Of a stretch of 64,000 bases of DNA, positions 17,726 to 63,591 are shown piece by piece. Numbering within the stretch: the stretch's first letter is position 1; each line of letters begins with the position of its first letter. This DNA comes from a virus. Its lineage: Duplodnaviria; Heunggongvirae; Uroviricota; Caudoviricetes. The DNA is taken from the IMG/VR virus record IMGVR_UViG_3300037743_000091; one strand, 5' to 3'. The notes beneath the pieces are model-generated. The model saw only the letters and a list, made by a program, of their open reading frames with translations. It did no database searches and was not told the origin of the DNA. The translations under genes and the position numbers were made by a program.

Positions 17726-17769
17726 TTGCTAACTCCTGTGACTTCGTGTAATGTTACATATGTCAGCAC
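17726..17769 (+). promoter_or_regulatory. Conserved promoter/operator element: -35 TTGCTA, 17 bp spacer, -10 TAATGT, then TACATATGTCAGCAC
   Basis: Canonical spacing. 25 nt upstream of GGAGG + ATG 17795. Confidence 0.6.
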
Positions 17770-17794
17770 GGAACACCGAACCACGGAGGTCACC

Positions 17795-18046
17795 ATGAAC
17801 AGCACCCGCGAGGAACTGACCCAGGGCGTCAAGTCGTTCAGCGACAAGCTCCTGAACGACCTGCGGAACTCCGCGCACATGGACCGAGCGAACCTGGTCG
17901 AGAACATCACGGGCTACACGATCCCGGAGCGCTCGGAGAAGATCATGCACGTGGACACGATCATCTCCGTGATCGAGGAGGAGCAGGCGCGGCGTAGCGG
18001 ACTCGCTTCTTCGGGGGAGATCCTGGCAGCGTTCGGCGCGAACTGA
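17795..18046 (+). CDS. Hypothetical protein (83 aa)
   Basis: ATG after ACGGAGG RBS. Promoter-proximal. Confidence 0.5.
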   Translation: MNSTREELTQGVKSFSDKLLNDLRNSAHMDRANLVENITGYTIPERSEKIMHVDTIISVIEEEQARRSGLASSGEILAAFGAN

Positions 18047-18131
18047 CTCGCCCGGTGACGGCCCGCTTCTGCGGGACGTTGCCGAGTGGGTTAGCCCGCT
18101 ACGTCAGCACAACTACCGAAAGGAACCCACC

Positions 18132-19202
18132 ATGGTTCACGAAATCACTGACACGGACGCCATGTTTAGCGTCCGCGAAATGCCGTGGCATCGTCTCGGA
18201 ACGGTCCTCACGGACTACCCGACGCGCGAGGAGGCGCAGAAGATCGCCCACGACTGGGAGCCCGTGACGGCCCCGGTGTTCCGCCGCGTGGTCGGCGTCC
18301 ATACCCACGGGAACGAGTGCTACAGCGACTTCGGCTCCGGCGACCTGGAGTGTGAGCAGGCGGAGGGTCCGTTCTCCCGCTTCGAGGAGATCGAGGGACA
18401 GCAGGAGGTCGTCCGCTCGGACAACGGCCACCACATCGGCGTCACGAACGACACCCTCGGGATCGTCACGAACGATGAGATGTACGACATTGCGGAGGCT
18501 GTCCAGGGGCTCAGCGGGGACGTGATGTACGAGACCGGCGGTACCCTTCGCGGAGGCCGTCAGGTGTGGCTCCTCCTGCGCCTCGCGGAGCCCCTGGAGA
18601 TCAAGGGCGATCCTCGCGGCGCGACGATGCAGTACTTCGCCCTCCAGAACAACCACGACGGCGGGGGTTCGTTCCGGGGTCAGGCGATCAACACGAGGAT
18701 CGTGTGCGCGAACACGTCCCGCATGGCCGACATGGACGCCCGCGCCCACGAGACGGAGATCGTCTTCCGGCACACGAAGAACGTGGCGGAGCGCGTCGAG
18801 GAGGCGAAGCAGGCACTGGCCATGTGGCGTACCTCGATCAACGAGTGGCAGCTCTTCAACGAGCACCTGATCTCGTGCAAGATCACGCGGGAGCAGCGGG
18901 AGGAGTTTGTGGAGCGGTTCTTTCCGATACCGCCCACGGGTGTTTCCAAGCGCATGATGACCAACATCGAGAACGACCGGGGGAACCTGCGGGAGATCTT
19001 CGCAGGGGTCACCAGCGAGGGGATCGAGAACACGGCCTACGGCCTGGTTCAGGGTGCAGTGGAGTTCTCCCAGCACTACCGCGCGACCCGGGGCAAGAGT
19101 GACATGGCGCGCAACGAGAACCGTTTCCGCCGGTCCGTCCTGGACAAGGACAAGCTGGTCCGGGGCGCGGCGAAGCTGGCCAAGGAGATCGCCCTCGTGT
19201 GA
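18132..19202 (+). CDS. DUF932 (phage/plasmid-related) protein
   Basis: YFALQNNHDGGGSFRGQAINTRIVCANT block matches the DUF932 R.VC.N signature. 356 aa. GAAAGGAA RBS. Confidence 0.5.
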   Translation: MVHEITDTDAMFSVREMPWHRLGTVLTDYPTREEAQKIAHDWEPVTAPVFRRVVGVHTHGNECYSDFGSGDLECEQAEGPFSRFEEIEGQQEVVRSDNGHHIGVTNDTLGIVTNDEMYDIAEAVQGLSGDVMYETGGTLRGGRQVWLLLRLAEPLEIKGDPRGATMQYFALQNNHDGGGSFRGQAINTRIVCANTSRMADMDARAHETEIVFRHTKNVAERVEEAKQALAMWRTSINEWQLFNEHLISCKITREQREEFVERFFPIPPTGVSKRMMTNIENDRGNLREIFAGVTSEGIENTAYGLVQGAVEFSQHYRATRGKSDMARNENRFRRSVLDKDKLVRGAAKLAKEIALV

Positions 19203-19215
19203 TCCCCTGACCGTA

Positions 19216-19243
19216 GGACGGGCGGCCTTCGGGCCGCCCGTCC
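19216..19243 (+). terminator. I-shaped GC hairpin terminator (GGACGGGCGGCC-TTCG-GGCCGCCCGTCC)
   Basis: Perfect 12 bp stem immediately after the stop of 18132..19202, followed by TTCC. Confidence 0.5.
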
Positions 19244-19269
19244 TTCCGTGCAGTAGAAAGGATGGATAG

Positions 19270-19482
19270 ATGGCGCAGCGTAAGACGACCTTCGAGATGT
19301 GCGATAACCCGGAGTGCGGCAACGAGTACGAGGTCTTCAAGAGCGAACCCCTTCCGGGTTTTGTGATCACACGCGGTAGCTGGGACAACGGCGCGGGTGG
19401 GGGACCGATCCCTCAGACCTACGCGTGCTCCGTGGAATGCTTGCCCGCTGCCGTACTTTGCCGGATCGGGGAGGAGGGATGA
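19270..19482 (+). CDS. Zinc-finger protein (70 aa)
   Basis: CDNPECG ... CSVEC Cys4. AAAGGATGG RBS. Confidence 0.5.
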   Translation: MAQRKTTFEMCDNPECGNEYEVFKSEPLPGFVITRGSWDNGAGGGPIPQTYACSVECLPAAVLCRIGEEG

Positions 19483-19796
19483 GCGAGGAGTACGAGCCTC
19501 ACACTGAGGAGGAAGTACGCCAGAGCGCCGCTGACACACTCCGGCACGCCCGTCTCGATACCAAGGGGATCATCTGGGGTAAGAGGAGCAAGGATGATCG
19601 CCGGTCGGCGTGGCGCACCCTGGAGTCAGCTTCCCTGTCGGCGGCCTCCATGTGTGCCCAGTGGACGGCAGCGGGAGATCCGTTCGCCATGCACCAGGCG
19701 GTCAAGTGGGCTCGTGTGTTCGTCCTCCTGGACGATCGCCGTAAGCGCATGTTCAGGATGCACCGGGATCGTTTATTCGGGAGGTTTCTTAAATGA
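19479..19796 (+). CDS. Hypothetical protein (105 aa)
   Basis: ATGA overlap. GGGAGGAGGG RBS. Confidence 0.5.
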   Translation: MSEEYEPHTEEEVRQSAADTLRHARLDTKGIIWGKRSKDDRRSAWRTLESASLSAASMCAQWTAAGDPFAMHQAVKWARVFVLLDDRRKRMFRMHRDRLFGRFLK

Positions 19797-20167
19797 GGTA
19801 CCTCGGACCTCTTCCGTTCCCTGTGAGGACTCTTGGGGACGTGTGGGATCTTTCGGTACCGATTCCTCCACGCCGCCACCTCCGGACCTTGGGAGATTTC
19901 TGGGACCTGCCGGACGTGGTTATCCGTGTCCTGGAGATGCGGGAGAGGGAACAGGAGGAAGAGGACATGGACGAGGACGACGAGTGGACCGAGGAGGACG
20001 ACGCGGAGGAGGGATGGAGGCAGTACAGGTACGCGAAGAATCAGGTACTCGCTGCTCGGAAGATCCTCGACGACCTCGAACGAGCCCTGGAAGACGCGGT
20101 ACGTCTTCGTGAGTTCCGTCAGGAATTCAGGCGCATTACTAATAGCTCCCACTTCTACCGGGGGTGA
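19793..20167 (+). CDS. Hypothetical acidic protein (124 aa)
   Basis: TAAATG overlap. GGAGG RBS. Glu/Asp-rich central stretch. Confidence 0.45.
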   Translation: MRYLGPLPFPVRTLGDVWDLSVPIPPRRHLRTLGDFWDLPDVVIRVLEMREREQEEEDMDEDDEWTEEDDAEEGWRQYRYAKNQVLAARKILDDLERALEDAVRLREFRQEFRRITNSSHFYRG

Positions 20168-20190
20168 CATAACAGGGTTACAGTGCAGGC

Positions 20191-21314: not shown

Positions 21315-21585
21315 CTTCGTTCGATCTGCGATCCGTACGGGTGTCCCGTACATCGTCGGTGCCCTGCTCTCTTGGCTCACGGCGCGGGGGATCGATATTC
21401 CTCCGGAGGGTGAGGCGGGGCTGATCGCGTTCTTGACCGCGTTGTTCGGCGCGGTTTACTACTTGACGGTTCGGGCCCTGGAGAGTCGTTGGCCTAAGCT
21501 CGGGGTTCTTCTCGGGTCGGCTACGGCTCCGGAATACCGGGGACCGGACTCCAAGGGGGTTACCTCGAAGGAGACGCAGGACTGA
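21307..21585 (+). CDS. Holin-like membrane protein (TTG start)
   Basis: Two hydrophobic helices (VPYIVGALLSWL; LIAFLTALFGAVYYL). Directly downstream of the endolysin. GAGAGGA RBS. Confidence 0.45.
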   Translation: MSDFVRSAIRTGVPYIVGALLSWLTARGIDIPPEGEAGLIAFLTALFGAVYYLTVRALESRWPKLGVLLGSATAPEYRGPDSKGVTSKETQD

Positions 21586-21652
21586 CCCCGGCGGCTGCCG
21601 GTCCGTTATCCCACTGTTATACGGATCGGTAGTCGCCCTCTCTTGGATGTGG

Positions 21653-21673
21653 TAATGTTACGAACGTCAGCAC
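21653..21673 (+). promoter_or_regulatory. Conserved promoter core (TAATGTTACGAACGTCAGCAC), divergent -35
   Basis: Same -10/+1 block as the family. 30 nt upstream of the HicA-like gene. Confidence 0.5.
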
Positions 21674-21703
21674 AACGTACGGTACGACATCCCGGAGGGC
21701 ACA

Positions 21704-21904
21704 GTGAACAGGGAACTACGAGAACTCCTTGCGGAACTGGATAAGCAGGGGTTCAAGTACAAGGTGACCAAGAAGGGTCACGTCATGATCAAGACGGCCG
21801 ATAATAAGCCGGTGACCACGTTCTCCGGTACCCCGAGCGATATTCGTTCGTGGAAGAACAGTATAAGCCGTTTGAAGCGGGCCGGTTTCGAGGATGAGGG
21901 TTGA
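21704..21904 (+). CDS. hicA: HicA-like toxin (mRNA interferase family)
   Basis: 66 aa. LRELLAELDKQGFKYKVTKKGHVMIKT ... SDIRSWKNSISRLKRAGF follows the HicA/YcfA pattern (helix-GW-KGSH-h-h, then a C-terminal basic helix). GTG start after GGAGGG. Confidence 0.55.
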   Translation: MNRELRELLAELDKQGFKYKVTKKGHVMIKTADNKPVTTFSGTPSDIRSWKNSISRLKRAGFEDEG

Positions 21905-22534: not shown

Positions 22535-22827
22535 CTCGCGTATTCAGTGATGCCGTCCTCGCAAAGTCTCGTAGTTACCTGGCCAATGGGCACGTTCATC
22601 GTGATGCCGAAGCGGAAAACATGTGGTGGGTTCAGGGTGCGGACCTCATGAACAGTCGCCCGTACCGGGTTCAGGTAGTCATGGATGGGGATCTGATCCT
22701 CACCCGAACCTGTACGTGCGAGCACGGGAAGAACGCGGGAGGGTCGGCCACGTGTTCGCACGTTGCGGCTGCTCTCATTCGTAAACAGCAGATCGACAAA
22801 GAAGGGGGTACAGCAGATGACGAGTAA
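22531..22827 (+). CDS. SWIM zinc-finger protein
   Basis: C-x-C-x11-C-x-H (RTCTCEHGKNAGGSATCSH). GGAGGGG RBS. ATGA overlap. Confidence 0.5.
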   Translation: MTRVFSDAVLAKSRSYLANGHVHRDAEAENMWWVQGADLMNSRPYRVQVVMDGDLILTRTCTCEHGKNAGGSATCSHVAAALIRKQQIDKEGGTADDE

Positions 22828-23029
22828 TAAGGGCGAAGATGAGGAGTTGCTGACTCCGGCGGAAGTGGCTCACCTGTTCCGTGTGGACGTCAAGACGGTT
22901 GCGCGATGGGCGCAGATCGGCAGAATCCCTCGCGATCAGGTGATCATCACCCTGGGCGGGCACCGCCGGTACAAGGCCCGGTTCATCCGGTCTCTGCTGC
23001 TGAGCGAGGGAGAGAATGACGCAGGATGA
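22817..23029 (+). CDS. Helix-turn-helix DNA-binding protein (excisionase/MerR-like HTH_17)
   Basis: LTPAEVAHLFRVDVKTVARWAQIGRIP motif. Confidence 0.55.
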   Translation: MTSNKGEDEELLTPAEVAHLFRVDVKTVARWAQIGRIPRDQVIITLGGHRRYKARFIRSLLLSEGENDAG

Positions 23030-23198: not shown

Positions 23199-23265
23199 CT
23201 CAGGGCGTTATCTAACCGTGATGGAAGATCAGACGGATTAGGTAGCGCCCTGAGTTGTTGTGATG

Positions 23266-23286
23266 TAGTGTTACGTACGTCAGCAC
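23266..23286 (+). promoter_or_regulatory. Promoter core variant (TAGTGTTACGTACGTCAGCAC)
   Basis: Single substitution in the -10. 24 nt upstream of AAGGAG + ATG 23311. Confidence 0.45.
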
Positions 23287-23310
23287 AACGAATCACCGAA
23301 GGAGTAGATC

Positions 23311-23961
23311 ATGCAGATCTCCAAGATGAACATCGGCACCATGTACCTGGTCAACGAGCGTCGGGACTGGAAGACCTGGGGTTACGACAACAAGGCGTAC
23401 ATCCTCATGAGCCTGGAGCCGTTCGAGGAGCAGAAGCTGCGATGGTCCTCGCGTTACACCTATGCCACCGTGACCATCAACGGGACCAACTACTCTTACG
23501 GCGGTCGGCCGTGGTTGGCGACCACAGTCAGCGGCTCGAAGCTCTACCTGATGCAGCACGTTGACCCGGACACTCGGGAGCCGGTCCTGAACGAGCAGAA
23601 CGGCAAGCCGTTCCTGTCGCTCATCTCGACTCGGAGTGTGCGCGGCGAGTGGGCCGTGGCCAAGGCGGAGCAGGAGGGGGCAGTCAAGGAAAAGCAGGAG
23701 CGCAGTGACCGGGAGCGGGTAGCCTCTCAGAACCGTTGGAACCGCGCCGAGGGTATCGCGATCCGCCTCCGTTCCCTGCTCGGGCTGAACTCGAACGCCT
23801 ACCAGGTGAACACGGCCGATGTCGGACACGGGTACTCCGGGGGAGGTCCGCGCGCCATCAAGATCAGCATGAACGAGGCCGAGAAGCTGGCCGACATGCT
23901 GGGCGAAGCTCACCAGGAGATCGAAGACCTCAAGGCGGAGTTGCGCGACCTTCGCGGCTAA
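23311..23961 (+). CDS. Hypothetical protein (216 aa) with C-terminal coiled coil
   Basis: Promoter-proximal with strong RBS. Followed by a terminator hairpin. Confidence 0.55.
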   Translation: MQISKMNIGTMYLVNERRDWKTWGYDNKAYILMSLEPFEEQKLRWSSRYTYATVTINGTNYSYGGRPWLATTVSGSKLYLMQHVDPDTREPVLNEQNGKPFLSLISTRSVRGEWAVAKAEQEGAVKEKQERSDRERVASQNRWNRAEGIAIRLRSLLGLNSNAYQVNTADVGHGYSGGGPRAIKISMNEAEKLADMLGEAHQEIEDLKAELRDLRG

Positions 23962-23971: not shown

Positions 23972-24014
23972 CACACTGGGGCGATAACCCGTTTGTGGTT
24001 ATCGCCCCAGTGTG
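23972..24014 (+). terminator. Hairpin terminator (CACACTGGGGCGATAACC-CGTTTGT-GGTTATCGCCCCAGTGTG) overlapping the next promoter
   Basis: Perfect 18 bp stem directly after stop 23961. Its 3-prime arm abuts TAATGT of the next promoter copy. Confidence 0.5.
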
Positions 24015-24015
24015 C

Positions 24016-24036
24016 TAATGTTACGTACGTCAGCAC
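24016..24036 (+). promoter_or_regulatory. Conserved promoter core (TAATGTTACGTACGTCAGCAC)
   Basis: 22 nt upstream of AAAGGAAG + ATG 24059. Confidence 0.5.
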
Positions 24037-24058
24037 CTCACCGAACGAAAGGAAGATC

Positions 24059-24337
24059 ATGGGTCTCTTGAACGGTCTCTTCGGACTCAGCGAGCCGACC
24101 CCGGAAGAGCGGCGCAAGGCGCGGAACGACAAGCGCGAGACGCGCCGGATCGTGGGTGAGCGTGACACGGGCGAGATCGCGGACGCCACGGCGGCCGGTT
24201 CCCTGTCGATCGACGTCGAGCGTGACGGTTCCGGCGTGACGAGCAAGGCATACAACCGGCGCGGGAACTCGTGGCCCGGTCAGCGGATCTCCGAGACCCC
24301 GGCGGAAGAGCCCAAGAAGGGCAGCCTGGGCTGGTGA
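24059..24337 (+). CDS. Hypothetical protein (92 aa)
   Basis: Promoter-proximal. Basic N-terminal region. Confidence 0.5.
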   Translation: MGLLNGLFGLSEPTPEERRKARNDKRETRRIVGERDTGEIADATAAGSLSIDVERDGSGVTSKAYNRRGNSWPGQRISETPAEEPKKGSLGW

Positions 24338-24483
24338 CCGACCCGGACGACAAGCTTCTTGCTGCCCTCTCCGAGAAGGACACGTGCGTTCACTGCACGT
24401 GGGAGGTCACCAACTTCACGGAGTACGTGGAGCACCTGGCCAAGGAGCACCCGGAGCACGGGAATCCCAAGACATACGGCTGA
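24334..24483 (+). CDS. C2H2-type zinc-finger miniprotein (49 aa)
   Basis: C-x2-C-x12-H-x5-H (CVHCTWEVTNFTEYVEHLAKEH). GTGA overlap. Confidence 0.4.
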   Translation: MTDPDDKLLAALSEKDTCVHCTWEVTNFTEYVEHLAKEHPEHGNPKTYG

Positions 24484-24538
24484 ACCACACCGGAGGGGCG
24501 CATATTGCGCCCCTCCGGGCTACATGGAAGAGAGCACG

Positions 24539-25471
24539 ATGAATTCACCTACCTTGGTGATCACCAGGGGTCTGCCCGGAGCGGGAAAGGCCACGTTTGC
24601 CCGGCGCTGGGTGGACGAAGATCTGGAGAAGCGCATACGGGTTAACTACCGTGATCTTTACACGTCGATGTATGGACGGAGTAGGCCCCCTCGGGAACCT
24701 CAGAAGAACAGCGTCCGGAAGGCCCAGCACGCACAAGTTCAGGCGCTCCTGCTGAGTGGCATAAGCGTCGTTGTGGATGACGAGAACCTGGTTCTTCGGG
24801 ACGCTCGTGCTTTTGCTGACCTTGCCCTGCGTACCGGGGCTGAGTTTCAGGTGAGGGACTTTACGGATGTCTCCCTGTCGGAGTGCATTCAGCGTGACGC
24901 CGGGCGCGTGTTTTCGGTAGGGGAGCAGACGATTCGGGACCTGTACCGGCGGTACAAGTTCCCTCTGCCGAAGGTGGAGCCGACACCGCGTCGAGCCGGT
25001 GAGCGCCCGGCGTGGTACAAGCCGCATGACACCTCCGCAATCCCGACCGTCATCGTGGATCTGGACGGCACCCTGGCTCGCAACATCACGAATCGGGAGA
25101 TGTGGGGCCCCAGGTTCGAGGAGCGCGTTTACGAAGACGAGGTGAACCAGTCTGTTCTTCGGTTCATTACTGGATGGCTCATGCAGGGGTATGAACTGAT
25201 CTTCATGTCGGGGCGTGCGGAGATCTCTCGCGCTGAGACGATGCGCTGGCTCTTCGATAAGGCGGGCATCCGTGAGGATGAATACGAGCTGTTCATGCGT
25301 CGAAACGGGGATGGTCGGCACGACTATGAGGTCAAGGCCGACCTGTTCGAGGAGCACGTTCGCCCCTACTACGCGAACGTGGCCCTGGCGATCGACGATC
25401 GGAATCAGGTCGTGGATCTCTGGCGCGGGATTGGCCTGGAGTGCTGGCAGGTTCGCGACGGAGACTTCTAG
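24539..25471 (+). CDS. pnk: Polynucleotide 5-prime-kinase/3-prime-phosphatase (T4 Pnk-like)
   Basis: N-terminal P-loop kinase (TRGLPGAGKATFARRW). C-terminal HAD phosphatase motif I (VIVDLDGTLA). GGAAGAGAG RBS. Confidence 0.7.
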   Translation: MNSPTLVITRGLPGAGKATFARRWVDEDLEKRIRVNYRDLYTSMYGRSRPPREPQKNSVRKAQHAQVQALLLSGISVVVDDENLVLRDARAFADLALRTGAEFQVRDFTDVSLSECIQRDAGRVFSVGEQTIRDLYRRYKFPLPKVEPTPRRAGERPAWYKPHDTSAIPTVIVDLDGTLARNITNREMWGPRFEERVYEDEVNQSVLRFITGWLMQGYELIFMSGRAEISRAETMRWLFDKAGIREDEYELFMRRNGDGRHDYEVKADLFEEHVRPYYANVALAIDDRNQVVDLWRGIGLECWQVRDGDF

Positions 25472-25884: not shown

Positions 25885-25885
25885 C

Positions 25886-27180: not shown

Positions 27181-27453
27181 ATGAATGATTCGGAAAATCT
27201 GGTAACCCGTCCGATGCGTCGAGCACTGGACTTCCTGTATCCCCGGCCGGACGGTAGCGAGTATGAGGGCTGGGAGGTTACCAACGTGCGAGAAGTACTG
27301 CGTGCTGCACTCGCAGAGGAGCGGGACTTTCTGATAGCTCGCCTGCACTCGGAGGAGTGTCCGTACGATTCCATGATTTGTGAGTGTGACATGGACTGGT
27401 ATAGCTCACACGTGGACACCGTAATCACGCACATCCTCGGGAGTTCGGAGTGA
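27181..27453 (+). CDS. Hypothetical protein (90 aa)
   Basis: GAGGAG RBS. Cys cluster CPYDSMICECD. Confidence 0.45.
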   Translation: MNDSENLVTRPMRRALDFLYPRPDGSEYEGWEVTNVREVLRAALAEERDFLIARLHSEECPYDSMICECDMDWYSSHVDTVITHILGSSE

Positions 27454-27725
27454 GACTCAAGCTCGACCACAGGCCGACTCTTTTCATGCGTTCCCCGCTG
27501 TGCGGGACGTGCTGGGTCGATCTGGAGTACGACGCAGATGGTATGACGTGCCCGAACTGCGGTACCTACTGGGATCATGAGGACGCCGAGGACGGGGCTG
27601 AGGGGAAACTTCCAGAGGACTGGGACGACCTCCCCGGGCTTCCGATCGACGAAGACCAGGCGCGCACGATCGCACTGGAGCAGGAGCGGGAGACGTTCGC
27701 CGCGTGGAAGAGGCGTCGGGAATGA
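27450..27725 (+). CDS. Zinc-ribbon protein (91 aa)
   Basis: CGTC ... CPNCG. GTG after GGGAG. Acidic C-terminus. Confidence 0.45.
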   Translation: MRLKLDHRPTLFMRSPLCGTCWVDLEYDADGMTCPNCGTYWDHEDAEDGAEGKLPEDWDDLPGLPIDEDQARTIALEQERETFAAWKRRRE

Positions 27726-27730
27726 TGTGC

Positions 27731-27750
27731 TAATGTTACGTACGTCAGCA
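27731..27750 (+). promoter_or_regulatory. Conserved promoter core (TAATGTTACGTACGTCAGCAC) directly after a stop codon
   Basis: 22 nt upstream of GAAGGGG + ATG 27773. Confidence 0.5.
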
Positions 27751-27772
27751 CGTCCGATCGGAAGGGGTCAAG

Positions 27773-27952
27773 ATGAACAGCAGGAGATGGGTCACTGCCG
27801 GAGTCGGCCTCGCGCTGGGATACGTAGTCGTGTCCTGCGCGTTCGCCGGGCTCTGGTGGCCGCTGGGCGCCCTGGTTGCCCTGTGGGTTGCCGCGTTCGC
27901 CTGGACGAACACGAGCACGCGGGCAGTCTGGAGGCGTAACACAGGTGACTAA
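27773..27952 (+). CDS. Small membrane protein (59 aa), not in the ORF track
   Basis: Read manually: MNSRRWVTAGVGLALGYVVVSCAFAGLWWPLGALVALWVAAFAW ... Two TM helices. Promoter + RBS. Confidence 0.45.
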   Translation: MNSRRWVTAGVGLALGYVVVSCAFAGLWWPLGALVALWVAAFAWTNTSTRAVWRRNTGD

Positions 27953-29896: not shown

Positions 29897-30079
29897 ATGA
29901 ATAGCGACGCAGATACGGAATACGCAAGGGCCCTTCAAGCGTGGATTTCAGCTAATAAGCGATTGTCCGATGCGCGTAAGCGACAGGCTGCACGGAACTT
30001 GCGTGCGTTGGCCGCTTTCACTGAGTCCGTGGCAGGCGCAATCGAAGGAGTCGATAATGCAGAGCTTTCTCCACGCTGA
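29897..30079 (+). CDS. Hypothetical protein (60 aa)
   Basis: GAAGGGAGGAG RBS. Alternative ATG 29879 overlaps the upstream stop. Confidence 0.4.
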   Translation: MNSDADTEYARALQAWISANKRLSDARKRQAARNLRALAAFTESVAGAIEGVDNAELSPR

Positions 30080-37427: not shown

Positions 37428-37457
37428 GGGCCCGACTCCCCTTGTGGGAGTCGGGCC
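37428..37457 (+). terminator. Hairpin terminator (GGGCCCGACTCCC-CTTGT-GGGAGTCGGGCC)
   Basis: 12-13 bp stem immediately after stop 37422. Adjacent to the next promoter copy. Confidence 0.5.
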
Positions 37458-37471
37458 TCGTCCACATGTGG

Positions 37472-37491
37472 TAATGTTACGAACGTCAGCA
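37472..37491 (+). promoter_or_regulatory. Conserved promoter core (TAATGTTACGAACGTCAGCAC)
   Basis: 23 nt upstream of GGGAGGAGGGG + ATG 37515. Confidence 0.5.
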
Positions 37492-37514
37492 CGTCCACAG
37501 AGGGAGGAGGGGAC

Positions 37515-40044: not shown

Positions 40045-40088
40045 TTGCTAAGTCCCCTGGATTCGTGTAATGTTACGAACGTCAGCAC
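40045..40088 (+). promoter_or_regulatory. Conserved promoter/operator element: -35 TTGCTA, 17 bp spacer, -10 TAATGT, then TACGAACGTCAGCAC
   Basis: Canonical copy. 28 nt upstream of GAAGGAG + ATG 40117. Confidence 0.6.
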
Positions 40089-40116
40089 AACAGAGCACGA
40101 TCCGAAGGAGCACACC

Positions 40117-41959: not shown

Positions 41960-42004
41960 TTGTTGGACTGGCCCGACATGGTGTAATGTTACGTACGTCA
42001 GCAC
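41960..42004 (+). promoter_or_regulatory. Conserved promoter/operator element: -35 TTGTTG, 18 bp spacer, -10 TAATGT, then TACGTACGTCAGCAC
   Basis: 19 nt upstream of CAGGAGG + ATG 42024. Confidence 0.6.
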
Positions 42005-42023
42005 AACAACCCAGGAGGTCACC

Positions 42024-53401: not shown

Positions 53402-53949
53402 TGTCCGTCAATCAATACGCCGTAGCCCAGGCGGTACGGGATCTTCTGCACGCAGTAGGGATCGATCCGGACGACTCCCCGCACACCTCGGATACCCCGA
53501 ATCGGGTAGCGCGTTTCTGGGCAGAATTCATGGACTACGACCCGGGGACCGTGGCTACGACCTTCCCCGTGGAGCAGGTAGACCAAATGGTGGTCGTCTC
53601 CGGGATCGATACGTGGAGCATGTGCGCTCACCACCTCCTGCCATTCTCAGCACGGGTCACCATCGGGTATATCGCAGATGACCAGGTACTCGGGCTGTCC
53701 AAGTTCGCGCGCATCGCGCACGCGGAAGCGCACCAACCCAATACGCAGGAGGGGCTGGTCGCCAGGATCGCTGACACGGTTACCGAGGTGACGGGGACGA
53801 AGGACGTTGCGGTCAAGGCCACGGGAATGCACCTGTGCATGGCTATGCGCGGGATCAAGACCCCGGCGGAAATGACCACCTCGGTAACTCGTGGAGCATT
53901 CCGGGATCAGCCGGAAACTCGGGCCGAATGGCTTTCTCTGACACGATGA
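53401..53949 (+). CDS. folE: GTP cyclohydrolase I
   Basis: SMCAHHLLPF (CEHH-type zinc motif) and ... GLSKFARI ...; TGATG overlap with queE. Confidence 0.8.
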   Translation: MSVNQYAVAQAVRDLLHAVGIDPDDSPHTSDTPNRVARFWAEFMDYDPGTVATTFPVEQVDQMVVVSGIDTWSMCAHHLLPFSARVTIGYIADDQVLGLSKFARIAHAEAHQPNTQEGLVARIADTVTEVTGTKDVAVKATGMHLCMAMRGIKTPAEMTTSVTRGAFRDQPETRAEWLSLTR

Positions 53950-59173: not shown

Positions 59174-59246
59174 TTCCTCGGTAGCTCAACAGGTAGAGCA
59201 CTGCCCTGTTAAGGCATTGGTTGTAGGTTCGAGTCCTGCTCGGGGA
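59174..59246 (+). tRNA. tRNA-Asn(GTT)
   Basis: Acceptor TCCTCGG/TCGGGGA. D-arm GCTC..GAGC. Anticodon loop CTGTTAA. T-arm GTAGG-TTCGAGT-CCTGC. Confidence 0.75.
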
Positions 59247-59249
59247 GCT

Positions 59250-59336
59250 TGGTAAGGCCAGCCGATGGGCGGCGGCAACTGTCTTGAAAACAGTCTGCGG
59301 GTGATACCGCGTGTGGGTTCGACTCCCACCCTTACC
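59250..59336 (+). tRNA. tRNA-Ser(TGA) with long variable arm
   Basis: Acceptor GGTAAGG/CCTTACC. Anticodon arm ACTGT-CTTGAAA-ACAGT. 19 nt variable arm. T-arm GTGGG-TTCGACT-CCCAC. Confidence 0.7.
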
Positions 59337-59340
59337 GCTC

Positions 59341-59421
59341 TGCTGTTCACGCGACTGGTGTCGCACGCGGACTGTAAATCCGTTGCCCTTGGGCGTGCCA
59401 GGTTCGATCCCTGGGAGCAGC
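59341..59421 (+). tRNA. tRNA-Tyr(GTA) with long variable arm
   Basis: Acceptor GCTGTTC/GAGCAGC. D-arm GCGA..TCGC. Anticodon loop CTGTAAA. T-arm CCAGG-TTCGATC-CCTGG. Confidence 0.7.
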
Positions 59422-59425
59422 ACCG

Positions 59426-59500
59426 AGCACCTATGGGGAAGTCAGGAGTTCCCGTCTCCCTGTCAAGGAGAAGATCGCCGGTTCAAATCCGGTTAGGTGC
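59426..59500 (+). tRNA. tRNA-Asp(GTC)
   Basis: Acceptor GCACCTA/TAGGTGC. Anticodon arm TCTCC-CTGTCAA-GGAGA. T-arm GCCGG-TTCAAAT-CCGGT. Confidence 0.7.
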
Positions 59501-59508
59501 GCTTTTCA

Positions 59509-59580
59509 TTCCGCATTCGTCCAACGGGCAGGACCCCGGATTTTGGTTCCGGAAATCTAGGTTCGAATCCTAGATGCGGA
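59509..59580 (+). tRNA. tRNA-Gln(TTG)
   Basis: Acceptor TCCGCAT/ATGCGGA. D-arm GTCC..GGAC. Anticodon arm CCGGA-TTTTGGT-TCCGG. T-arm CTAGG-TTCGAAT-CCTAG. Confidence 0.75.
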
Positions 59581-59667
59581 ACTGTTATTGCCCATTTCGG
59601 TTACCCTGGCCCTAGTTGTGATACGTGGCTGGCGATCGGGCCGCACGGGACCTCCAAGGAGGAAACC

Positions 59668-61892: not shown

Positions 61893-61936
61893 TTGCTAAC
61901 TGGGTGGTCTCCGTGTAATGTTACGTATGTCAGCAC
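61893..61936 (+). promoter_or_regulatory. Conserved promoter/operator element: -35 TTGCTA, 17 bp spacer, -10 TAATGT, then TACGTATGTCAGCAC
   Basis: 26 nt upstream of CCGGAGGA + ATG 61963. Confidence 0.6.
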
Positions 61937-61962
61937 AGAGGAACACAAACCCGGAGGACAGC

Positions 61963-62343
61963 ATGAACGTCACCACCAACGGCACCACGGTTCACAACGG
62001 ATGGATCGGTTTCGGTGAGTCCGGTGTCTACTGCGGATCTTCCAAGCGGTCTAACTACAGGATCACGCAGTACCGTGCCACGAACGCTCCGGTCAACTGC
62101 AAGCGCTGCCTGGGGATCCGCGAAGAGCGCCCCGCCGCTCCAGTCGTCGAGAAGACCATCACGACCATCGCCGCGACTGACCTTACCGAGGGCATGATGG
62201 TCATGGTCAAGGGAAACGCTCGCCGGGTCGTCGCGATCAGCAACCACATCAACGGTGAGGCACTGCTCGTCCGGGTTCGCATCGGGGCTCAGACCAAGAG
62301 GTTCCCGGTTCGCAAGAGCGCGAACGTCAAGGTTCAGAACTGA
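61963..62343 (+). CDS. Hypothetical protein (126 aa), own promoter and terminator
   Basis: CGSS ... CKRC pair. Bracketed by a promoter copy and a GC hairpin. Confidence 0.55.
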   Translation: MNVTTNGTTVHNGWIGFGESGVYCGSSKRSNYRITQYRATNAPVNCKRCLGIREERPAAPVVEKTITTIAATDLTEGMMVMVKGNARRVVAISNHINGEALLVRVRIGAQTKRFPVRKSANVKVQN

Positions 62344-62375: not shown

Positions 62376-62407
62376 TTCTTCCGTTACAAACTCGTGATCT
62401 CCCCAGG

Positions 62408-62451
62408 TTGCTAAGTCCCCTGGACTACTGTAATGTTACGTATGTCAGCAC
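62408..62451 (+). promoter_or_regulatory. Conserved promoter/operator element: -35 TTGCTA, 17 bp spacer, -10 TAATGT, then TACGTATGTCAGCAC
   Basis: 28 nt upstream of GAAGGAG + ATG 62480. Confidence 0.6.
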
Positions 62452-62479
62452 AACAGAGGTACTACCGAAGGAGCTTCCG

Positions 62480-62965
62480 ATGAACGCCACTCTGATCGCG
62501 AACCGCCGTCCGGGCCGAACGGCCACCATGATCCACATCGAGGGCGTTGGGTGCGCCGCACTGGCGCAGGCGAAGTACACCCGGACCCTCGGGGACGAGC
62601 GCGAGCTGAGCGAGGCCCTTCGGAACGCCATCGCCCTCGCGACCGCGTTCAAGCAGATGAGCGTGTGCCGCAAGTGCCGCGCGACGGCGCGCCAGATCCT
62701 CGCGGTTGCCGCTAAGCGTGCGGCTTCTCAGCCGGTCGTTCAGGTTGAGGTGAAGACGGTCCCCCTCGTGATCGAGATGGCGAACACGGTCCGGTATGCA
62801 TCGGTTCACCACAAGGGTTGCCGCTCCATGAAGGACCCCATGGATCTCGGACGTGCTGTCTCTGCCACGGAGGTCCCGGGGCTGATCATGGAGGTCACGG
62901 GATGGGATGAGTACACCATGGACGACGTGACCTTCTGCCCGTGCGCGAAGACCCGACTCCAGTAG
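62480..62965 (+). CDS. Hypothetical protein (161 aa), own promoter and terminator
   Basis: Cys-containing (CRKCRATARQ, CPCAK). Promoter-proximal. Confidence 0.55.
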   Translation: MNATLIANRRPGRTATMIHIEGVGCAALAQAKYTRTLGDERELSEALRNAIALATAFKQMSVCRKCRATARQILAVAAKRAASQPVVQVEVKTVPLVIEMANTVRYASVHHKGCRSMKDPMDLGRAVSATEVPGLIMEVTGWDEYTMDDVTFCPCAKTRLQ

Positions 62966-62972
62966 TCGAATG

Positions 62973-62998
62973 AGAGCGGCCCCTTGGGGCCGCTCTCA
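62973..62998 (+). terminator. Hairpin terminator (GAGAGCGGCCCC-TTG-GGGCCGCTCTC)
   Basis: Perfect 11-12 bp stem 8 nt after the stop. Confidence 0.55.
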
Positions 62999-63035
62999 CC
63001 GGAGTTCCGTTCGAGCATGGAGAGGAGGGGAAGAC

Positions 63036-63194
63036 ATGAGCAACTACAGCAAGGGAACCGTGATCCAGGTGGCCCCGAAGGGTGGCGGTCCGTTCGTCGA
63101 GCACGGGGTTAGCAAGGACAACGGCAAGTCCGTCCTGACAACAACGGGCGAGGTGATCATCAAGAACGCCGTTCTGATGCAGGAAAAGAAGTGA
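63036..63194 (+). CDS. Small protein (52 aa)
   Basis: GAGGAGGGGAAG RBS. Confidence 0.4.
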   Translation: MSNYSKGTVIQVAPKGGGPFVEHGVSKDNGKSVLTTTGEVIIKNAVLMQEKK

Positions 63195-63253
63195 GCACCG
63201 GGGGAGGCCCGGAATCGGGTCTCCCCTCCCACTACCCGGAATTGGAGAAAGCA

Positions 63254-63523
63254 ATGAGCATGACCCACGCAGGAATGCGGCACGCGACGAAGACCCGGTC
63301 CCTCAAGGAGGGTGAGCAGGTGTTCACCCTGGCGTACTACTACGGCACCGCACACATTGAGACGGTCGAGATCGTCGCGCATACCCGCTCTGCCGTTGCG
63401 CGCCAGTACGCCAGGCGTAACCGCATGTACCTGGGGCGCAAGCGGATGACGGGACGGGGATGCTGGTTCAAGGTGACCGAGCGTAAGACGGGGCTCCCTG
63501 GTGGTTGGGTCTGGGTCTCGTGA
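63254..63523 (+). CDS. Hypothetical basic protein (89 aa)
   Basis: GGAGAAAG RBS. Arg/Lys-rich C-terminal half. Confidence 0.45.
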   Translation: MSMTHAGMRHATKTRSLKEGEQVFTLAYYYGTAHIETVEIVAHTRSAVARQYARRNRMYLGRKRMTGRGCWFKVTERKTGLPGGWVWVS

Positions 63524-63547
63524 CCCAAAATTAATTGATCCCCTGGG

Positions 63548-63591
63548 TTGCAGCCTGGCCCCGGATAGGGTAATGTTACGTATGTCAGCAC
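63548..63591 (+). promoter_or_regulatory. Conserved promoter/operator element: -35 TTGCAG, 17 bp spacer, -10 TAATGT, then TACGTATGTCAGCAC
   Basis: 27 nt upstream of CCGGAGGAA + ATG 63619. Confidence 0.6.

What the first reader, a model, noticed from the sequence alone, without database searches (positions are those of the whole stretch)
17726..63591. About 14 copies of a 45 bp promoter-plus-operator element tile the genome, always oriented with the downstream gene
The element reads -35 TTGCTA, a 17 bp spacer (18 bp in the 41960 copy), -10 TAATGT, then a conserved TACG(T/A)(A/T)(C/T)GTCAGCACAAC block covering the predicted +1 region. It recurs at 1981 and 9015 on the minus strand. On the plus strand it recurs at 15388 (degenerate), 17726, 21653, 23266, 24016, 27731, 37472, 40045, 41960, 61893, 62408 and 63548; the 21653, 23266, 24016, 27731 and 37472 copies keep the -10/core but have no clear -35. 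Each copy sits 15-35 nt upstream of a GGAGG-type RBS. The downstream block is semi-palindromic around ACGTACGT, which is more than RNA polymerase needs. That fits a repressor or activator operator, or a conserved 5-prime leader structure. Several copies abut an I-shaped terminator, giving terminator-promoter insulator pairs that isolate single genes such as 61963, 62480 and 40117.
Basis: seen in the sequence. Interest (0 to 1): 0.75.

Follow-up and report, generated by a model that had tools for sequence, protein, structure and literature searches.

The report
Repeated phage promoter with shared leader
An uncultured soil phage of high-G+C Gram-positive bacteria starts at least 14 of its transcription units with the same promoter and the same first 11 transcribed bases, and that shared start is exactly complementary to the loop of a conserved hairpin encoded after the phage's single-strand-DNA-binding gene, which gives a testable explanation for similar unexplained repeats in cultured Microbacterium phages.

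Summary
The window holds exactly 14 copies of a 24-bp core, TA(A/G)TGT-TACGWAYG-TCAGCAC(AAC). All are intergenic and point the same way as the next gene. A start codon lies 25-46 nt downstream. The same core is invariant in three IMG/VR contigs and several soil and groundwater fragments whose genes are only 64-74% identical to the window.

The promoter reading is well supported. In 41 of 44 copies a T[T/A]G sits at the -35 position, against a 5% background. Half the window copies follow a strong hairpin.

The semi-palindromic operator argument is not supported, because ACGTACGT is not conserved. What persists in cultured relatives (Megan, Nicole72, clusters EC and EI) is the block GTnAG(G)C... 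It begins 6-7 nt after the -10 in the W, Megan-type and EC clades (4 or 6 nt in EI, depending on the hexamer chosen), at the predicted +1.

New lead: in four clades a strong hairpin right after the SSB gene carries in its loop the reverse complement of that clade's own block. A forward prediction in phage Quhwah was met.

Best reading: host primary-sigma promoters fused to a common 5' leader that pairs with an anti-leader RNA. A DNA operator remains a rival. This is a new variant of a known but unexplained kind of element.

The parts
1977..2023 (-). Promoter-leader element: -35 TTGCCC (inside a hairpin), TGG-TAATGT, TACGAACG, block GTCAGCACAAC at 1977-1987. Drives the 62-aa gene 1774-1962.
   Evidence: upstream hairpin -25.5 kcal/mol
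9011..9057 (-). Promoter-leader element between the helicase gene and the SprT-like and DNA polymerase genes. The position is syntenic with copies in contigs A, B and C.
   Evidence: hairpin -32.7 kcal/mol
15365..15411 (+). Variant element: TGG-TAAGGT-TACGAACGT is kept, but the block is degenerate (CAACAACAC). It drives the Sak4-like ATPase / SSB-like operon that contains the anti-leader hairpin.
   Evidence: predicted pairing with the hairpin loop is only -12.0 kcal/mol
16925..16996 (+). Anti-leader hairpin (-34 to -36 kcal/mol) right after the SSB-like gene 16313-16918. Its upper stem and loop hold GGTTGTGCTGAC (16948-16959), the exact complement of leader GUCAGCACAACC.
   Evidence: conserved in A, B, C, L013 and L031, with covarying outer stem
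16997..17081 (+). Two further hairpins. The second looks like a terminator (GACGCCCGCCG...CGGCGGGCGTC followed by GTTCTC). They link the anti-leader hairpin to the tRNA cluster 17082-17374.
   Evidence: read from the sequence; not tested further
17726..17772 (+). Promoter-leader element: CCCTGGG-TTGCTA, 17-bp spacer, TAATGT, TACATATG, GTCAGCACGGA. Drives the 83-aa gene 17795-18046. This gene also carries its own copy in A, B, C and L012, but at a different genome position.
18103..18113 (+). 'Block-only' copy GTCAGCACAAC with no recognisable -10, 19 nt upstream of the DUF932 gene start (18132).
   Evidence: The site upstream of DUF932 carries a full element in A and B, and a homologous element of the clade's own type in Megan, Nicole72, MementoMori and Quhwah.
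21630..21676 (+). Promoter-leader element: GGTAGT at the -35 position, TGG-TAATGT. Abuts a hairpin. Drives 21704-21904.
23243..23289 (+). Promoter-leader element: GGTAGC at the -35 position, -10 TAGTGT. Drives 23311-23961.
23993..24039 (+). Promoter-leader element directly abutting a -32.8 kcal/mol hairpin: TGC-TAATGT, block GTCAGCACCTC. Drives 24059-24337.
27708..27754 (+). Promoter-leader element with no -35, TGC-TAATGT. Drives the 59-aa ORF 27773-27952.
37449..37495 (+). Promoter-leader element with no -35, TGG-TAATGT, abutting a -28.6 kcal/mol hairpin. Drives 37515-37835.
40045..40091 (+). Promoter-leader element: TTGCTA, 17-bp spacer, TAATGT. A hairpin of -30.8 kcal/mol lies upstream. Drives 40117-40890.
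41961..42007 (+). Promoter-leader element: TTGTTG, 18-bp spacer, TAATGT. Drives 42024-42695, a 223-aa protein with a weak zinc-finger hit.
61893..61939 (+). Promoter-leader element downstream of the capsid gene: AT-rich stretch, CCCCTGGG-TTGCTA, 17-bp spacer, TAATGT. Drives 61963-62343.
62408..62454 (+). Promoter-leader element. A hairpin of -27.5 kcal/mol lies upstream. Drives 62480-62965.
63548..63594 (+). Promoter-leader element: TTGCAG, 17-bp spacer, TAATGT. Drives 63619 onward.

Best explanation
Each copy is a compact expression cassette. (1) It contains a promoter of the type read by the host's primary-sigma RNA polymerase: -35 TTGC or TAGC, a spacer of about 17 bp, -10 TAATGT, and often TGn. 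(2) It has a 7-nt discriminator, TACGWAY. (3) It has an invariant block, GTCAGCAC(AAC), that begins at the predicted transcription start, so every transcript carries the same 5' end. (4) This is followed by a short A/C-rich, unstructured leader, a strong ribosome-binding site and a start codon, often followed by AAC.

The block is the functionally shared part. It is kept, at the same place relative to the -10, in cultured Microbacterium phages whose -10 and discriminator differ.

My preferred mechanism is inferred, not shown. The common 5' leader is a tag read by base pairing. A hairpin RNA lies in the 3' untranslated region of the early SSB operon, just upstream of phage tRNA genes. Its loop displays the exact complement of the leader. 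It could therefore bind all tagged mRNAs in trans and co-regulate their stability or translation.

Confidence by step:
- Promoter function: about 0.85.
- The block acts as a transcribed leader rather than as part of the polymerase-binding site: about 0.6.
- Leader and hairpin loop pair as RNA: about 0.4-0.45.
For: The family is real.
- There are 14 clean copies, all intergenic and co-oriented with the next gene.
- The 24-nt core is invariant in 44 distinct copies from the window, three 46-59 kb IMG/VR contigs and nine short contigs.
- Shared genes in those relatives are only 64-74% identical at the nucleotide level and 35-78% at the protein level.
- Several copy positions are syntenic: after the helicase, after the endonuclease, and upstream of DUF932.

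Promoter geometry.
- T[TA]G at 16-19 bp spacing occurs in 41 of 44 copies, against a 5% background.
- TGn is present in 22 of 44 copies.
- Hairpins at or below -24.9 kcal/mol lie upstream of 7 of 14 window copies, against 5% of controls.
- No phage RNA polymerase or sigma factor was found among the called ORFs of 100 aa or more that were scanned (about 70 proteins, a few short ones included). Eight ORFs of that size, including 14-1042, were scanned with PHROGs only. Most ORFs under 100 aa were not scanned.
- No homolog of the small EC/EI 'sigma factor' was found.

The block is separable from the -10.
- Megan and Nicole72 read gTTGCCc, N17-18, TA[AGT]CGT, a variable 7 nt, then GTCAGGCACACAAC (identical in 8 of the 9 copies found, one mismatch in the ninth).
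- EI reads TAGAGT-AGGC-GTTAGCCAAACACC.
- EC reads TAGACT-ATAGGT-GTAAGCC.
- The promoter of the operon that holds the hairpin keeps the -10 and TACGWAYGT but lacks the block in W, A and B.
- Block-only copies without a -10 exist at W 18103, B 21827, A 37236, B 55045 and C 45307.

Leader properties.
- Length is 25-46 nt and composition is 8% T.
- It folds less than shuffled sequence (mean z +0.76; 37 of 42 positive).
- AAC is the second codon in 6 of 14 motif-driven genes against 6 of 102 others (p = 0.0006).

Anti-leader hairpin.
- A -30 to -36 kcal/mol hairpin right after the SSB gene holds the complement of that clade's own block.
- W clade: 12 nt. Megan and Nicole72: 9 nt. EI (MementoMori, MO526): 10 nt. 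EC (Quhwah): 9 nt.
- In an intergenic-only shuffle test, P = 0.0008, 0.027 and 0.0025 for three clades, and blocks from other clades reach 8 nt at most.
- The Quhwah case was a forward prediction and was met.
- Stems covary while loops stay fixed (Megan against Nicole72).
- The complementarity covers the predicted transcribed part (+1 onward) in three clades. In Quhwah it starts at -1, and a looser 11-of-12 match reaches -4.
- In the W clade the hairpin is followed by terminator-like hairpins and tRNA genes.
Against: - No transcription start site, RNA or binding data exist. The +1 is inferred only from the usual 6-7 nt distance after a -10 hexamer.
- An inverted double-stranded DNA copy of a protein-binding site would co-vary with the block in exactly the same way. 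Covariation therefore does not by itself separate RNA pairing from a DNA operator.
- In Megan the 9-nt match is not significant at whole-genome level (P = 0.37). It is significant only within intergenic sequence.
- In EI the complementary stretch is shifted to +5 to +14.
- The four hairpins are probably orthologous, so their common orientation and position count as one event.
- In the W clade the -10 and discriminator are as invariant as the block. The leader model does not explain that.
- The window is only part of the genome, and contigs A, B and C were only partly retrieved. A sigma factor or regulator could be encoded elsewhere.
Confidence: 0.55

Rival explanations
1. DNA operator. A phage-encoded (or host) DNA-binding protein recognises double-stranded GTCAGCAC(AAC) at +1 to +12 of every copy and represses or activates all of these promoters together. 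The inverted copy in the post-SSB hairpin is one more binding site.
For: - A site at +1 to +12 is a classic operator position.
- Information content is about 3 times what is needed to specify the sites, as at T7 promoters.
- An inverted site would co-vary with the block, just as observed.
- The phage encodes small DNA-binding candidates, such as the HTH_17/MerR protein at 22817-23029, which has a 60%-identical homolog in contig B.
Against: - The block is asymmetric, and the only semi-palindrome nearby is not conserved.
- No DNA-binding protein is conserved across all the motif-bearing clades. The proteins shared with Megan, Nicole72 or MementoMori are DUF932, ParB-like, a small-terminase-like protein, one 91-aa protein of unknown function (27450-27725), the preQ0 module and the packaging and head genes. 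Only DUF932 and the capsid protein are found in all three.
- The inverted copy sits in the apical loop of a strong hairpin in all four clades. In three of them it matches only the transcribed part of the element (in Quhwah it starts at -1), even in the W clade, where the -10 and discriminator are equally invariant. A duplex-DNA site needs none of this.
- Block-only copies occur inside operons.
Confidence: 0.2
2. Polymerase- or ribosome-intrinsic optimisation only. The discriminator and initial transcribed sequence are kept because they maximise open-complex formation, promoter escape, mRNA stability or translation with the host machinery. No specific partner exists, and the hairpin complementarity is incidental.
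For: - The cassette looks built for high expression: an unstructured CA-rich leader, a strong ribosome-binding site, and AAC as second codon.
- RNA polymerase can read the discriminator and the region from about -4 to +2 (established knowledge of sigma region 1.2 and core-recognition-element contacts).
- The motif is absent from the one genome per species searched, apart from one phage-like fragment. That is consistent with a phage-specific optimum.
Against: - RNA polymerase contacts do not explain invariance out to +11 or +14.
- They do not explain why different clades keep different blocks with equal rigidity.
- The loop complementarity recurs in four clades and met a forward prediction. The intergenic shuffle P values are 0.0008 to 0.027.
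Confidence: 0.17
3. Promoters for a phage-encoded sigma factor or RNA polymerase. The 24-bp core is the recognition site of a phage-specified transcription enzyme, as with T7-type promoters or as suspected for clusters EC and EI, which carry a gene annotated as a sigma factor.
For: - The length and invariance of the core resemble phage-polymerase promoters.
- EC and EI phages with analogous motifs are annotated with an 'RNA polymerase sigma factor'.
Against: - No RNA polymerase or sigma domain reached a Pfam cut-off among the roughly 60 window proteins scanned with Pfam, nor any PHROG of that kind among those scanned with PHROGs.
- The only trace is a sub-threshold Sigma70_r3 hit in 42024-42695 (16.7 bits against a 25.3-bit cut-off), with no PDB relative.
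- No homolog of the 82-86 aa EC/EI protein was found.
- The -35/-10 geometry is that of an ordinary housekeeping-sigma promoter.
- Copies precede both replication genes and genes next to the capsid gene. At least some would have to fire before any phage factor exists.
Confidence: 0.06

Closest known systems
Repeated asymmetric intergenic motifs of Microbacterium phage clusters EC and EI (Jacobs-Sera et al. 2020, PMC7302621; also PMC9224216 and PMC12614000)
   Same: - There are 5-13 copies per genome in short intergenic gaps, all oriented with the genes, upstream of the ribosome-binding site and 21-30 bp from the start codon.
- Read in the sequences themselves, they have the same layout: a -35-like hexamer, a spacer of about 17 bp, TAnnnT, then a conserved block GT[A/T]AGCC followed by a CA-rich leader.
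- The copy upstream of the DUF932 gene is orthologous.
- These are also the window's nearest cultured relatives by terminase and portal.
   Different: - The sequence differs: TAATGT-TACGWAY-GTCAGCACAAC here, against TAGaCTATaGGTgTaAgC in EC.
- No match to this core exists in 50,697 GenBank phage records.
- No homolog of the small protein annotated as a sigma factor in EC and EI was found in the window.
- The published papers state that the function is unknown, and they do not mention a -35/-10 reading or a complementary hairpin.
Motif of Microbacterium phages Megan and Nicole72 (seen in the GenBank records; I found no description of it in the papers read)
   Same: The element is clearly homologous: gTTGCCc, N17-18, TA[AGT]CGT, 7 nt, then GTCAGGCACACAAC, with the block at the same distance from the -10. 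The hairpin after the SSB gene has the loop GUGCCUGAC.
   Different: The block has one extra G and an extra CA. The discriminator is variable. There are only 4-6 copies. The ribosome-binding site is GAAAGGCA rather than GGAGG.
Phage-polymerase promoter families (T7, T3, SP6 type)
   Same: Many near-identical copies of about 23 bp span the start site, carrying more information than is needed to specify the sites (own knowledge; compare).
   Different: Those need a phage RNA polymerase gene and lack -35/-10 geometry. Here no such gene is found, and the geometry is that of a housekeeping-sigma promoter.
Stoperators of Cluster A mycobacteriophages (see PMC6550527)
   Same: Short asymmetric sites occur in many copies, with orientation tied to the direction of transcription.
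   Different: Stoperators are repressor sites of temperate phages and are scattered without fixed linkage to a -10. Here every full copy is fused to a -10 at a fixed 7-nt distance. No repressor or integrase was seen among the proteins scanned.
Processed antisense immunity RNAs of P4 (CI RNA) and P1/P7 (C4 RNA), which are RNase P substrates (mentioned in PMC5499578; mechanism from own knowledge)
   Same: A small hairpin RNA cut out of an operon transcript pairs with short complementary sequences near the 5' part of several phage transcripts. Here the candidate hairpin lies just 5' of tRNA genes, so RNase P cleavage would free its 3' side.
   Different: Those act in lysogenic immunity of temperate elements of enterobacteria, and on 2-3 targets. 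Here the candidate would target 14 or more leaders of an apparently lytic actinophage. Nothing is shown experimentally.
Other promoter-bearing intergenic repeats: the Gordonia cluster DJ 50-bp motif (PMC9671010) and the halovirus HF2 intergenic repeats (PMC8707807)
   Same: Repeated intergenic elements contain a -10-like box just upstream of genes. For HF2, promoter activity was shown with reporters.
   Different: Their sequences and hosts are unrelated, and no common transcribed block or complementary hairpin has been reported.

Membership tests
Sigma-70/SigA-type bacterial promoter | -10 hexamer of the form TAnnnT | tested here: met
   TAATGT, TAGTGT, TAAGGT or TAGGGT in 43 of 44 copies. One copy (B 17292) reads GTATGT, or TATGTT if shifted by 1 nt.
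Sigma-70/SigA-type bacterial promoter | -35-like element (TTGnnn) 16-19 bp upstream, or an extended -10 TGn | tested here: met
   TTG in 30 of 44 copies and TAG in 11 of 44 at 16-19 bp spacing, against a 5% background. TGn in 22 of 44. The three copies with no -35 all have TGn. The overall inverse association between -35 and TGn is not significant (p = 0.75).
Sigma-70/SigA-type bacterial promoter | Transcription starts 6-8 nt downstream of the -10, by host holoenzyme | not testable with these tools
   Needs 5' end mapping or in vitro transcription.
Cluster EC/EI repeated intergenic motif (Microbacterium phages) | Multiple asymmetric copies in short intergenic regions, one orientation relative to genes, upstream of the RBS and a few tens of bp from the start codon | tested here: met
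   definition taken
Cluster EC/EI repeated intergenic motif (Microbacterium phages) | Consensus sequence TAGaCTATaGGTgTaAgC (EC) or the 30-bp EI repeat | tested here: not met
   The sequence is different, and no BLAST match to GenBank phages was found. Only the layout and the sub-block GTnAGC...AAC are shared.
Cluster EC/EI repeated intergenic motif (Microbacterium phages) | Genome relatedness and orthologous placement | tested here: met
   Terminase and portal are 39-56% identical at the protein level to Megan and Nicole72, and DUF932 is 48-49% identical to all three cultured phages. The copy upstream of the DUF932 gene is present in every clade.
Cluster EC/EI repeated intergenic motif (Microbacterium phages) | Co-occurring small 'RNA polymerase sigma factor' gene | tested here: not met
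   A profile built from the MementoMori and Megan proteins gives no hit in any window ORF (best E = 0.11). The rest of the genome was not available.
Phage RNA polymerase promoter family (T7-like) | Phage-encoded RNA polymerase gene | tested here: not met
   No RNA polymerase hit among the called ORFs of 100 aa or more that were scanned. Most were scanned with Pfam and eight with PHROGs only. This covers the window only.
Cluster A stoperator | Repressor-bound sites of a temperate phage, not tied to a promoter | tested here: not met
   Every full copy is fused to a -10 at a fixed distance. No repressor or integrase domain was seen in the proteins scanned.
Start-associated sequences (SAS/ESAS; cluster K, cluster EF) | The conserved motif occupies the ribosome-binding-site position immediately before the start codon | tested here: not met
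   The block ends 1-25 nt upstream of a separate, ordinary GGAGG-type RBS.
Trans-acting antisense hairpin RNA (P4 CI / P1 C4 type) | Loop sequence complementary to target sites near transcript 5' ends | tested here: met
   A 12-nt perfect complement. Predicted duplexes are -17.6 to -21.9 kcal/mol for 13 of 14 leaders, against -10.5 +/- 3.3 for controls. It co-varies in four clades.
Trans-acting antisense hairpin RNA (P4 CI / P1 C4 type) | A stable processed RNA accumulates and acts on its targets | not testable with these tools
   Needs Northern blots or RNA-seq, plus compensatory mutagenesis. No Rfam family matches.

The most novel reading that the evidence does not exclude
The shared 5' leader and the post-SSB hairpin loop form a phage-wide RNA-RNA regulatory circuit. 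One small RNA, derived from a 3' untranslated region and released next to tRNA genes, pairs with the first 9-12 nt of every leader-tagged phage mRNA and co-ordinates their stability or translation. Leader and loop co-evolve across at least four clades of actinophages: this uncultured clade, the Megan type, cluster EC and cluster EI. This would explain the repeated motifs reported as unexplained in Microbacterium phages since 2020.
Probability: 0.38. Interest if true: 0.82.

Novelty: new variant of a known kind. Interest (0 to 1): 0.62.

Why it matters
Repeated, oriented intergenic motifs have been catalogued in several actinophage clusters, but the papers that describe them say their function is unknown. 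This window shows an unusually clean case, and comparison with relatives yields three results.

- These motifs are ordinary -35/-10 promoters fused to a clade-specific block at the transcription start.
- The block, not the -10, is what is conserved across clades.
- A hairpin loop after the SSB gene carries the complement of each clade's block.

Together these turn a descriptive observation into a concrete hypothesis that can be tested in culturable phages such as Quhwah, MementoMori and Megan.

If the RNA pairing is real, it would be a global post-transcriptional control layer in lytic actinophages. The cassettes would also be useful as compact, insulated expression parts for high-G+C hosts. 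If it is not real, the elements are still a well-defined promoter set for annotating these uncultured phages.

Tried and rejected
- Known phage: rejected. Megablast of 6 kb found nothing. Only 64-68% identity to Microbacterium phages over the terminase and portal genes.
- The motif in GenBank phages: none.
- The motif as a host sequence: a scan of one genome per species found only a 1.6-kb phage-like contig binned with a Nocardioides MAG.
- Distant capsid relatives (L033-L036) were fetched to look for diverged motifs. They have neither this motif nor any repeated 12-mer.
- Phage RNA polymerase or sigma: no domain found. The weak Sigma70_r3 and zinc-finger hits in 42024-42695 led nowhere. No homolog of the EC/EI 'sigma'.
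- The 140-aa conserved protein 47646-48068 was considered as a regulator. Its C-x-C...HGG motif looks like the small terminase subunits of actinophages (recalled from memory, not tested), so I dropped it.
- The ParB-like protein 49225-49881 was considered as the motif binder. It sits next to the DpdA and preQ0 genes and more likely belongs to the DNA-modification module. I did not pursue it.
- The expected trade-off between -35 and TGn: not significant.
- Leader secondary structure: the leaders are less structured than shuffles, so a conserved 5' structure is rejected.
- Rfam: only tRNAs at gathering score. Nothing credible on the hairpin region.
- Whole-genome test of the Megan anti-leader: not significant. 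It becomes significant only when restricted to intergenic sequence.
- The EC consensus searched in Megan found nothing, which revealed that Megan has its own variant.

Full report

Yes. The 18-nt core with up to 3 mismatches occurs 13 times, against 0.24 expected. The divergent 17726 copy adds one more.

A weight matrix built from these copies finds exactly 14 sites. Each scores at least 40 bits over the full 32-nt matrix, or at least 29.8 bits over the 21 core positions alone. Nothing else in the window scores above 8 bits. The family is therefore sharply bounded.

With my own codon-usage gene calls, all 14 sites fall in intergenic gaps of 82-644 bp and point the same way as the next gene. 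Two lie on the minus strand in the leftward replication arm. Twelve lie on the plus strand.

The conserved stretch is 24 nt: TA(A/G)TGT-TACGWAYG-TCAGCAC(AAC). It carries 39.3 bits, against the 13.2 bits needed to pick 14 sites in 64 kb.

**2. What is the window?**

It is about 60% G+C.
- The leftward arm holds primase, helicase, DNA polymerase I and glycosyltransferases.
- The rightward arm holds a Sak4-like ATPase, an SSB-like DUF669 protein, DUF932, a lysin, an RNA-repair set, a preQ0/DpdA module, large terminase, portal, a MuF-like protein and a capsid protein.
- There are nine tRNA genes.

There is no close match in GenBank phages. The nearest cultured relatives are Microbacterium phages of the EC/EI type (Nicole72, Megan, MementoMori), at 64-68% nucleotide identity over terminase and portal.

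**3. Relatives with the same element**

The exact 21-mer occurs in the following:
- three IMG/VR contigs of 46-59 kb, called A, B and C here;
- eight short soil or groundwater metagenome contigs;
- one 1.6-kb contig binned with a Nocardioides MAG.

It is absent from GenBank phages.

These relatives are only 64-74% identical to the window in coding DNA and 35-78% identical in protein. Yet the 24-nt core is essentially invariant in all 44 distinct copies.

Conservation falls abruptly on both sides of the core. Several copy positions are syntenic. This is purifying selection on a discrete site, not recent copying.

**4. Promoter reading**

- 41 of 44 copies have T[T/A]G (TTGC.. or TAGC/TAGT) at 16-19 bp, mostly 17 bp, upstream of the hexamer. 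The background rate is 5%.
- Half have TGn, including all three copies that lack a -35.
- Seven of the 14 window copies follow a hairpin at or below -24.9 kcal/mol, a value reached by 5% of control windows.
- No RNA polymerase or sigma domain was found among the called ORFs of 100 aa or more that were scanned. Most ORFs under 100 aa were not scanned.
- No homolog of the small EC/EI 'sigma factor' was found.

I conclude that these are promoters of the housekeeping-sigma type.

Two kinds of upstream module accompany the shared core:
- aTTAGTTATCCCCnGGGG-TTGC;
- in relatives, cGTAAC-N6-GTTACc followed by TAGC.

This suggests promoter classes.

**5. What is the downstream block?**

The semi-palindrome ACGTACGT is not conserved. 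Only 5 of 14 window copies have it, and most copies in relatives read TACGTATG.

The decisive comparison is with cultured relatives.
- Megan and Nicole72 carry gTTGCCc, N17-18, TA[AGT]CGT, a variable 7 nt, then GTCAGGCACACAAC, followed by an RBS and ATG. Eight of the nine copies found have this block exactly, and one has a single mismatch.
- MementoMori and MO526 (EI) carry TTAGG, N17, TAGAGT (TAACGT or TATGGT in some MO526 copies), then a 4-nt (MementoMori) or 7-nt (MO526) spacer, then GT[T/A]AGCCAAACACC.
- Quhwah (EC) carries TAGACT-ATAGGT-GTAAGCC.

The same layout therefore recurs. The part held in common is an asymmetric block, GTnAG(G)C..A(A/C)AAC. It begins 6-7 nt after the -10 in the W, Megan-type and EC clades. 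In MementoMori the distance is 4 nt after TAGAGT, or 6 nt if TATAGA is taken as the hexamer. That is where transcription should start.

The copy in front of the DUF932 gene is orthologous across all these clades.

Within the window clade the block can also be separated from the -10.
- The promoter of the ATPase-SSB operon keeps the -10 and TACGWAYGT but lacks the block in W, A and B.
- Block-only copies without a -10 sit before genes at W 18103, B 21827, A 37236, B 55045 and C 45307.

From the predicted G, the leaders have these properties:
- They are 25-46 nt long and 8% T.
- They fold less than shuffled sequence (mean z +0.76).
- They end in a strong RBS.
- The second codon is AAC in 6 of 14 motif-driven genes, against 6 of 102 others (p = 0.0006).

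The element is thus a whole expression cassette, and the block is best read as a common 5' leader.

**6. A candidate partner**

I listed every GTCAGCAC in the four genomes. This turned up one inverted copy conserved in W, A, B, C, L013 and L031.

On the transcribed strand it reads GGTTGTGCTGAC, the perfect complement of leader GUCAGCACAACC. It sits in the upper stem and loop of a -34 to -36 kcal/mol hairpin immediately after the SSB-like gene (window 16925-16996).

The outer stem covaries. Four pairs show double changes, while the loop is invariant. More hairpins and tRNA genes follow it in every genome.

The same arrangement exists in the cultured clades. In each, a strong hairpin right after the SSB gene carries that clade's own anti-block.
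- Megan and Nicole72: GUGCCUGAC against GUCAGGCAC. The stems differ and the loop is the same.
- MementoMori and MO526: GGUGUUUGGC against GCCAAACACC.

I ran shuffle tests restricted to intergenic sequence on the transcribed strand. They give P = 0.0008 (W), 0.027 (Megan) and 0.0025 (MementoMori). Blocks from other clades reach 8 nt at most.

I then predicted that a true EC phage should have the complement of GTAAGCC in the loop of a hairpin after its SSB gene. Quhwah has GGGCCGGGAGC-AUGGCUUACAACU-CGCUCCCGGCCC there. UGGCUUACA is the longest complement in the 23.5-kb locus.

Predicted duplexes between the window loop and 13 of the 14 leaders are -17.6 to -21.9 kcal/mol. The 15382 copy, whose operon contains the hairpin, gives -12.0. 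Control upstream regions give -10.5 +/- 3.3.

**7. Weighing the mechanisms**

Co-variation of block and loop shows the two are functionally linked. An inverted duplex-DNA binding site would co-vary in the same way, however.

These points favour RNA pairing:
- The complement lies in the apical part of a hairpin on the sense strand.
- It is confined to the predicted transcribed part of the element in three of the four clades, including the window clade, where the -10 and discriminator are just as invariant. In Quhwah it starts at -1, and a looser 11-of-12 match reaches -4.
- The stems covary while the loops are conserved.
- The setting is that of a 3' untranslated region next to tRNA genes.
- Block-only copies occur inside operons.
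- The hairpin's own operon lacks the block.

These points argue against it, or leave it open:
- There are no expression data.
- The four hairpins are probably one orthologous element.
- The EI pairing is shifted to +5 to +14.
- The Megan match is weak genome-wide.
- The leader model does not explain the invariance of the discriminator in the window clade.

My estimates are: promoter about 0.85; RNA pairing about 0.4; DNA operator about 0.2; intrinsic optimisation only about 0.17; phage sigma or polymerase about 0.06.

**8. Comparison with what is known, and novelty**

The closest described things are the repeated intergenic motifs of clusters EC and EI. The papers report their function as unknown. 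This element shares their layout, placement and genomic relatives, but not their sequence, and the window has no copy of their small 'sigma' gene.

It is not a T7-type promoter, because there is no phage polymerase. It is not a stoperator, because it is fused to a -10 and no repressor is evident. It is not a start-associated sequence, because a separate RBS follows it.

The candidate anti-leader resembles, in principle only, the processed antisense RNAs of P4 and P1/P7.

Verdict: a real and very clean promoter-leader family. It is a new sequence variant of a known but unexplained kind of element. It comes with a new, testable lead on how the whole class might work.

Noticed in passing
window 16925-17081 (also A 4353-4200 rc, B 22985-22830 rc, C 21529-21700, L013, L031): A conserved three-hairpin 3'-UTR-like region lies between the SSB-like gene and the tRNA cluster. 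The first hairpin's loop is the exact complement of the common leader. No Rfam family matches it.
   Followed up: yes
window 17082-17374 and 59175-59582: There are nine tRNA genes in two clusters (Cys, Glu x2, Gly; Asn, Ser, Tyr, Asp, Gln). Asn(GTT), Tyr(GTA) and Asp(GTC) are three of the four tRNAs that normally carry queuosine, and the phage encodes a preQ0 pathway and a TGT/DpdA-like enzyme. The enzyme might therefore act on phage tRNAs as well as, or instead of, DNA.
   Followed up: no
window 49225-53949: A 7-deazaguanine module sits directly upstream of the large terminase: ParB-like protein (49225-49881), TGT/DpdA-like (49981-51192), QueC, QueD, QueE and FolE. The ParB-like gene next to DpdA recalls the DpdA/DpdB pair of bacterial dpd systems (from memory). 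The module is shared with Nicole72 and partly with Megan, MementoMori and contigs B and C.
   Followed up: partly
start codons of the 14 motif-driven genes: The second codon is AAC in 6 of 14 motif-driven genes, against 6 of 102 other genes (Fisher p = 0.0006). Many genes downstream of the motif in the relatives begin ATGAACACC. The phage carries tRNA-Asn(GTT).
   Followed up: partly
upstream of the core: window 17726, 41961, 61893, 62408, 63548; relatives A 11813, B 30259, C 44686 and others: Two distinct upstream modules accompany the same core. One is an AT-rich stretch plus the palindrome CCCCnGGGG fused to the -35 TTGC. The other, mostly in relatives, is an inverted repeat cGTAAC-N6-GTTACc at about -50 to -65, followed by TAGC and cTTrCTG. 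They look like promoter classes or extra binding sites. GTTAC also occurs inside the core.
   Followed up: partly
window 17795-18046 versus A 37583-37353, B 55358-55161, C 44768-44965, L012: The 83-aa gene always has its own promoter copy. It sits in the early region in the window but right after the capsid gene in the relatives. Promoter and gene seem to move as one cassette.
   Followed up: partly
window 24359-25471, 30057-30479, 31577-32485, 32500-32988: An RNA-repair-like set is present: polynucleotide kinase-phosphatase, DUF6915, an RlaP nucleotidyltransferase and a WDGH-domain protein. It is presumably a counter-measure to host tRNA or RNA nucleases.
   Followed up: no
window 18132-19202: The DUF932 protein is the one non-structural protein of unknown function conserved in every motif-bearing clade (48-71% identity). 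It is always directly served by a copy of the motif.
   Followed up: partly
L032, L039, L040 (MementoMori, Quhwah, MO526), upstream of their motifs: In EC and EI phages the -35 region is embedded in CCTAAC-N4-6-ATTAGG, itself an inverted repeat (CCTAA/TTAGG). This is analogous to the palindromes abutting the -35 in the window clade.
   Followed up: no
window 2579-4996, 35654-37422: There are sulfotransferase-like, glycosyltransferase (x2) and methyltransferase genes. Cluster EC phages are also noted for glycosyltransferases.
   Followed up: no
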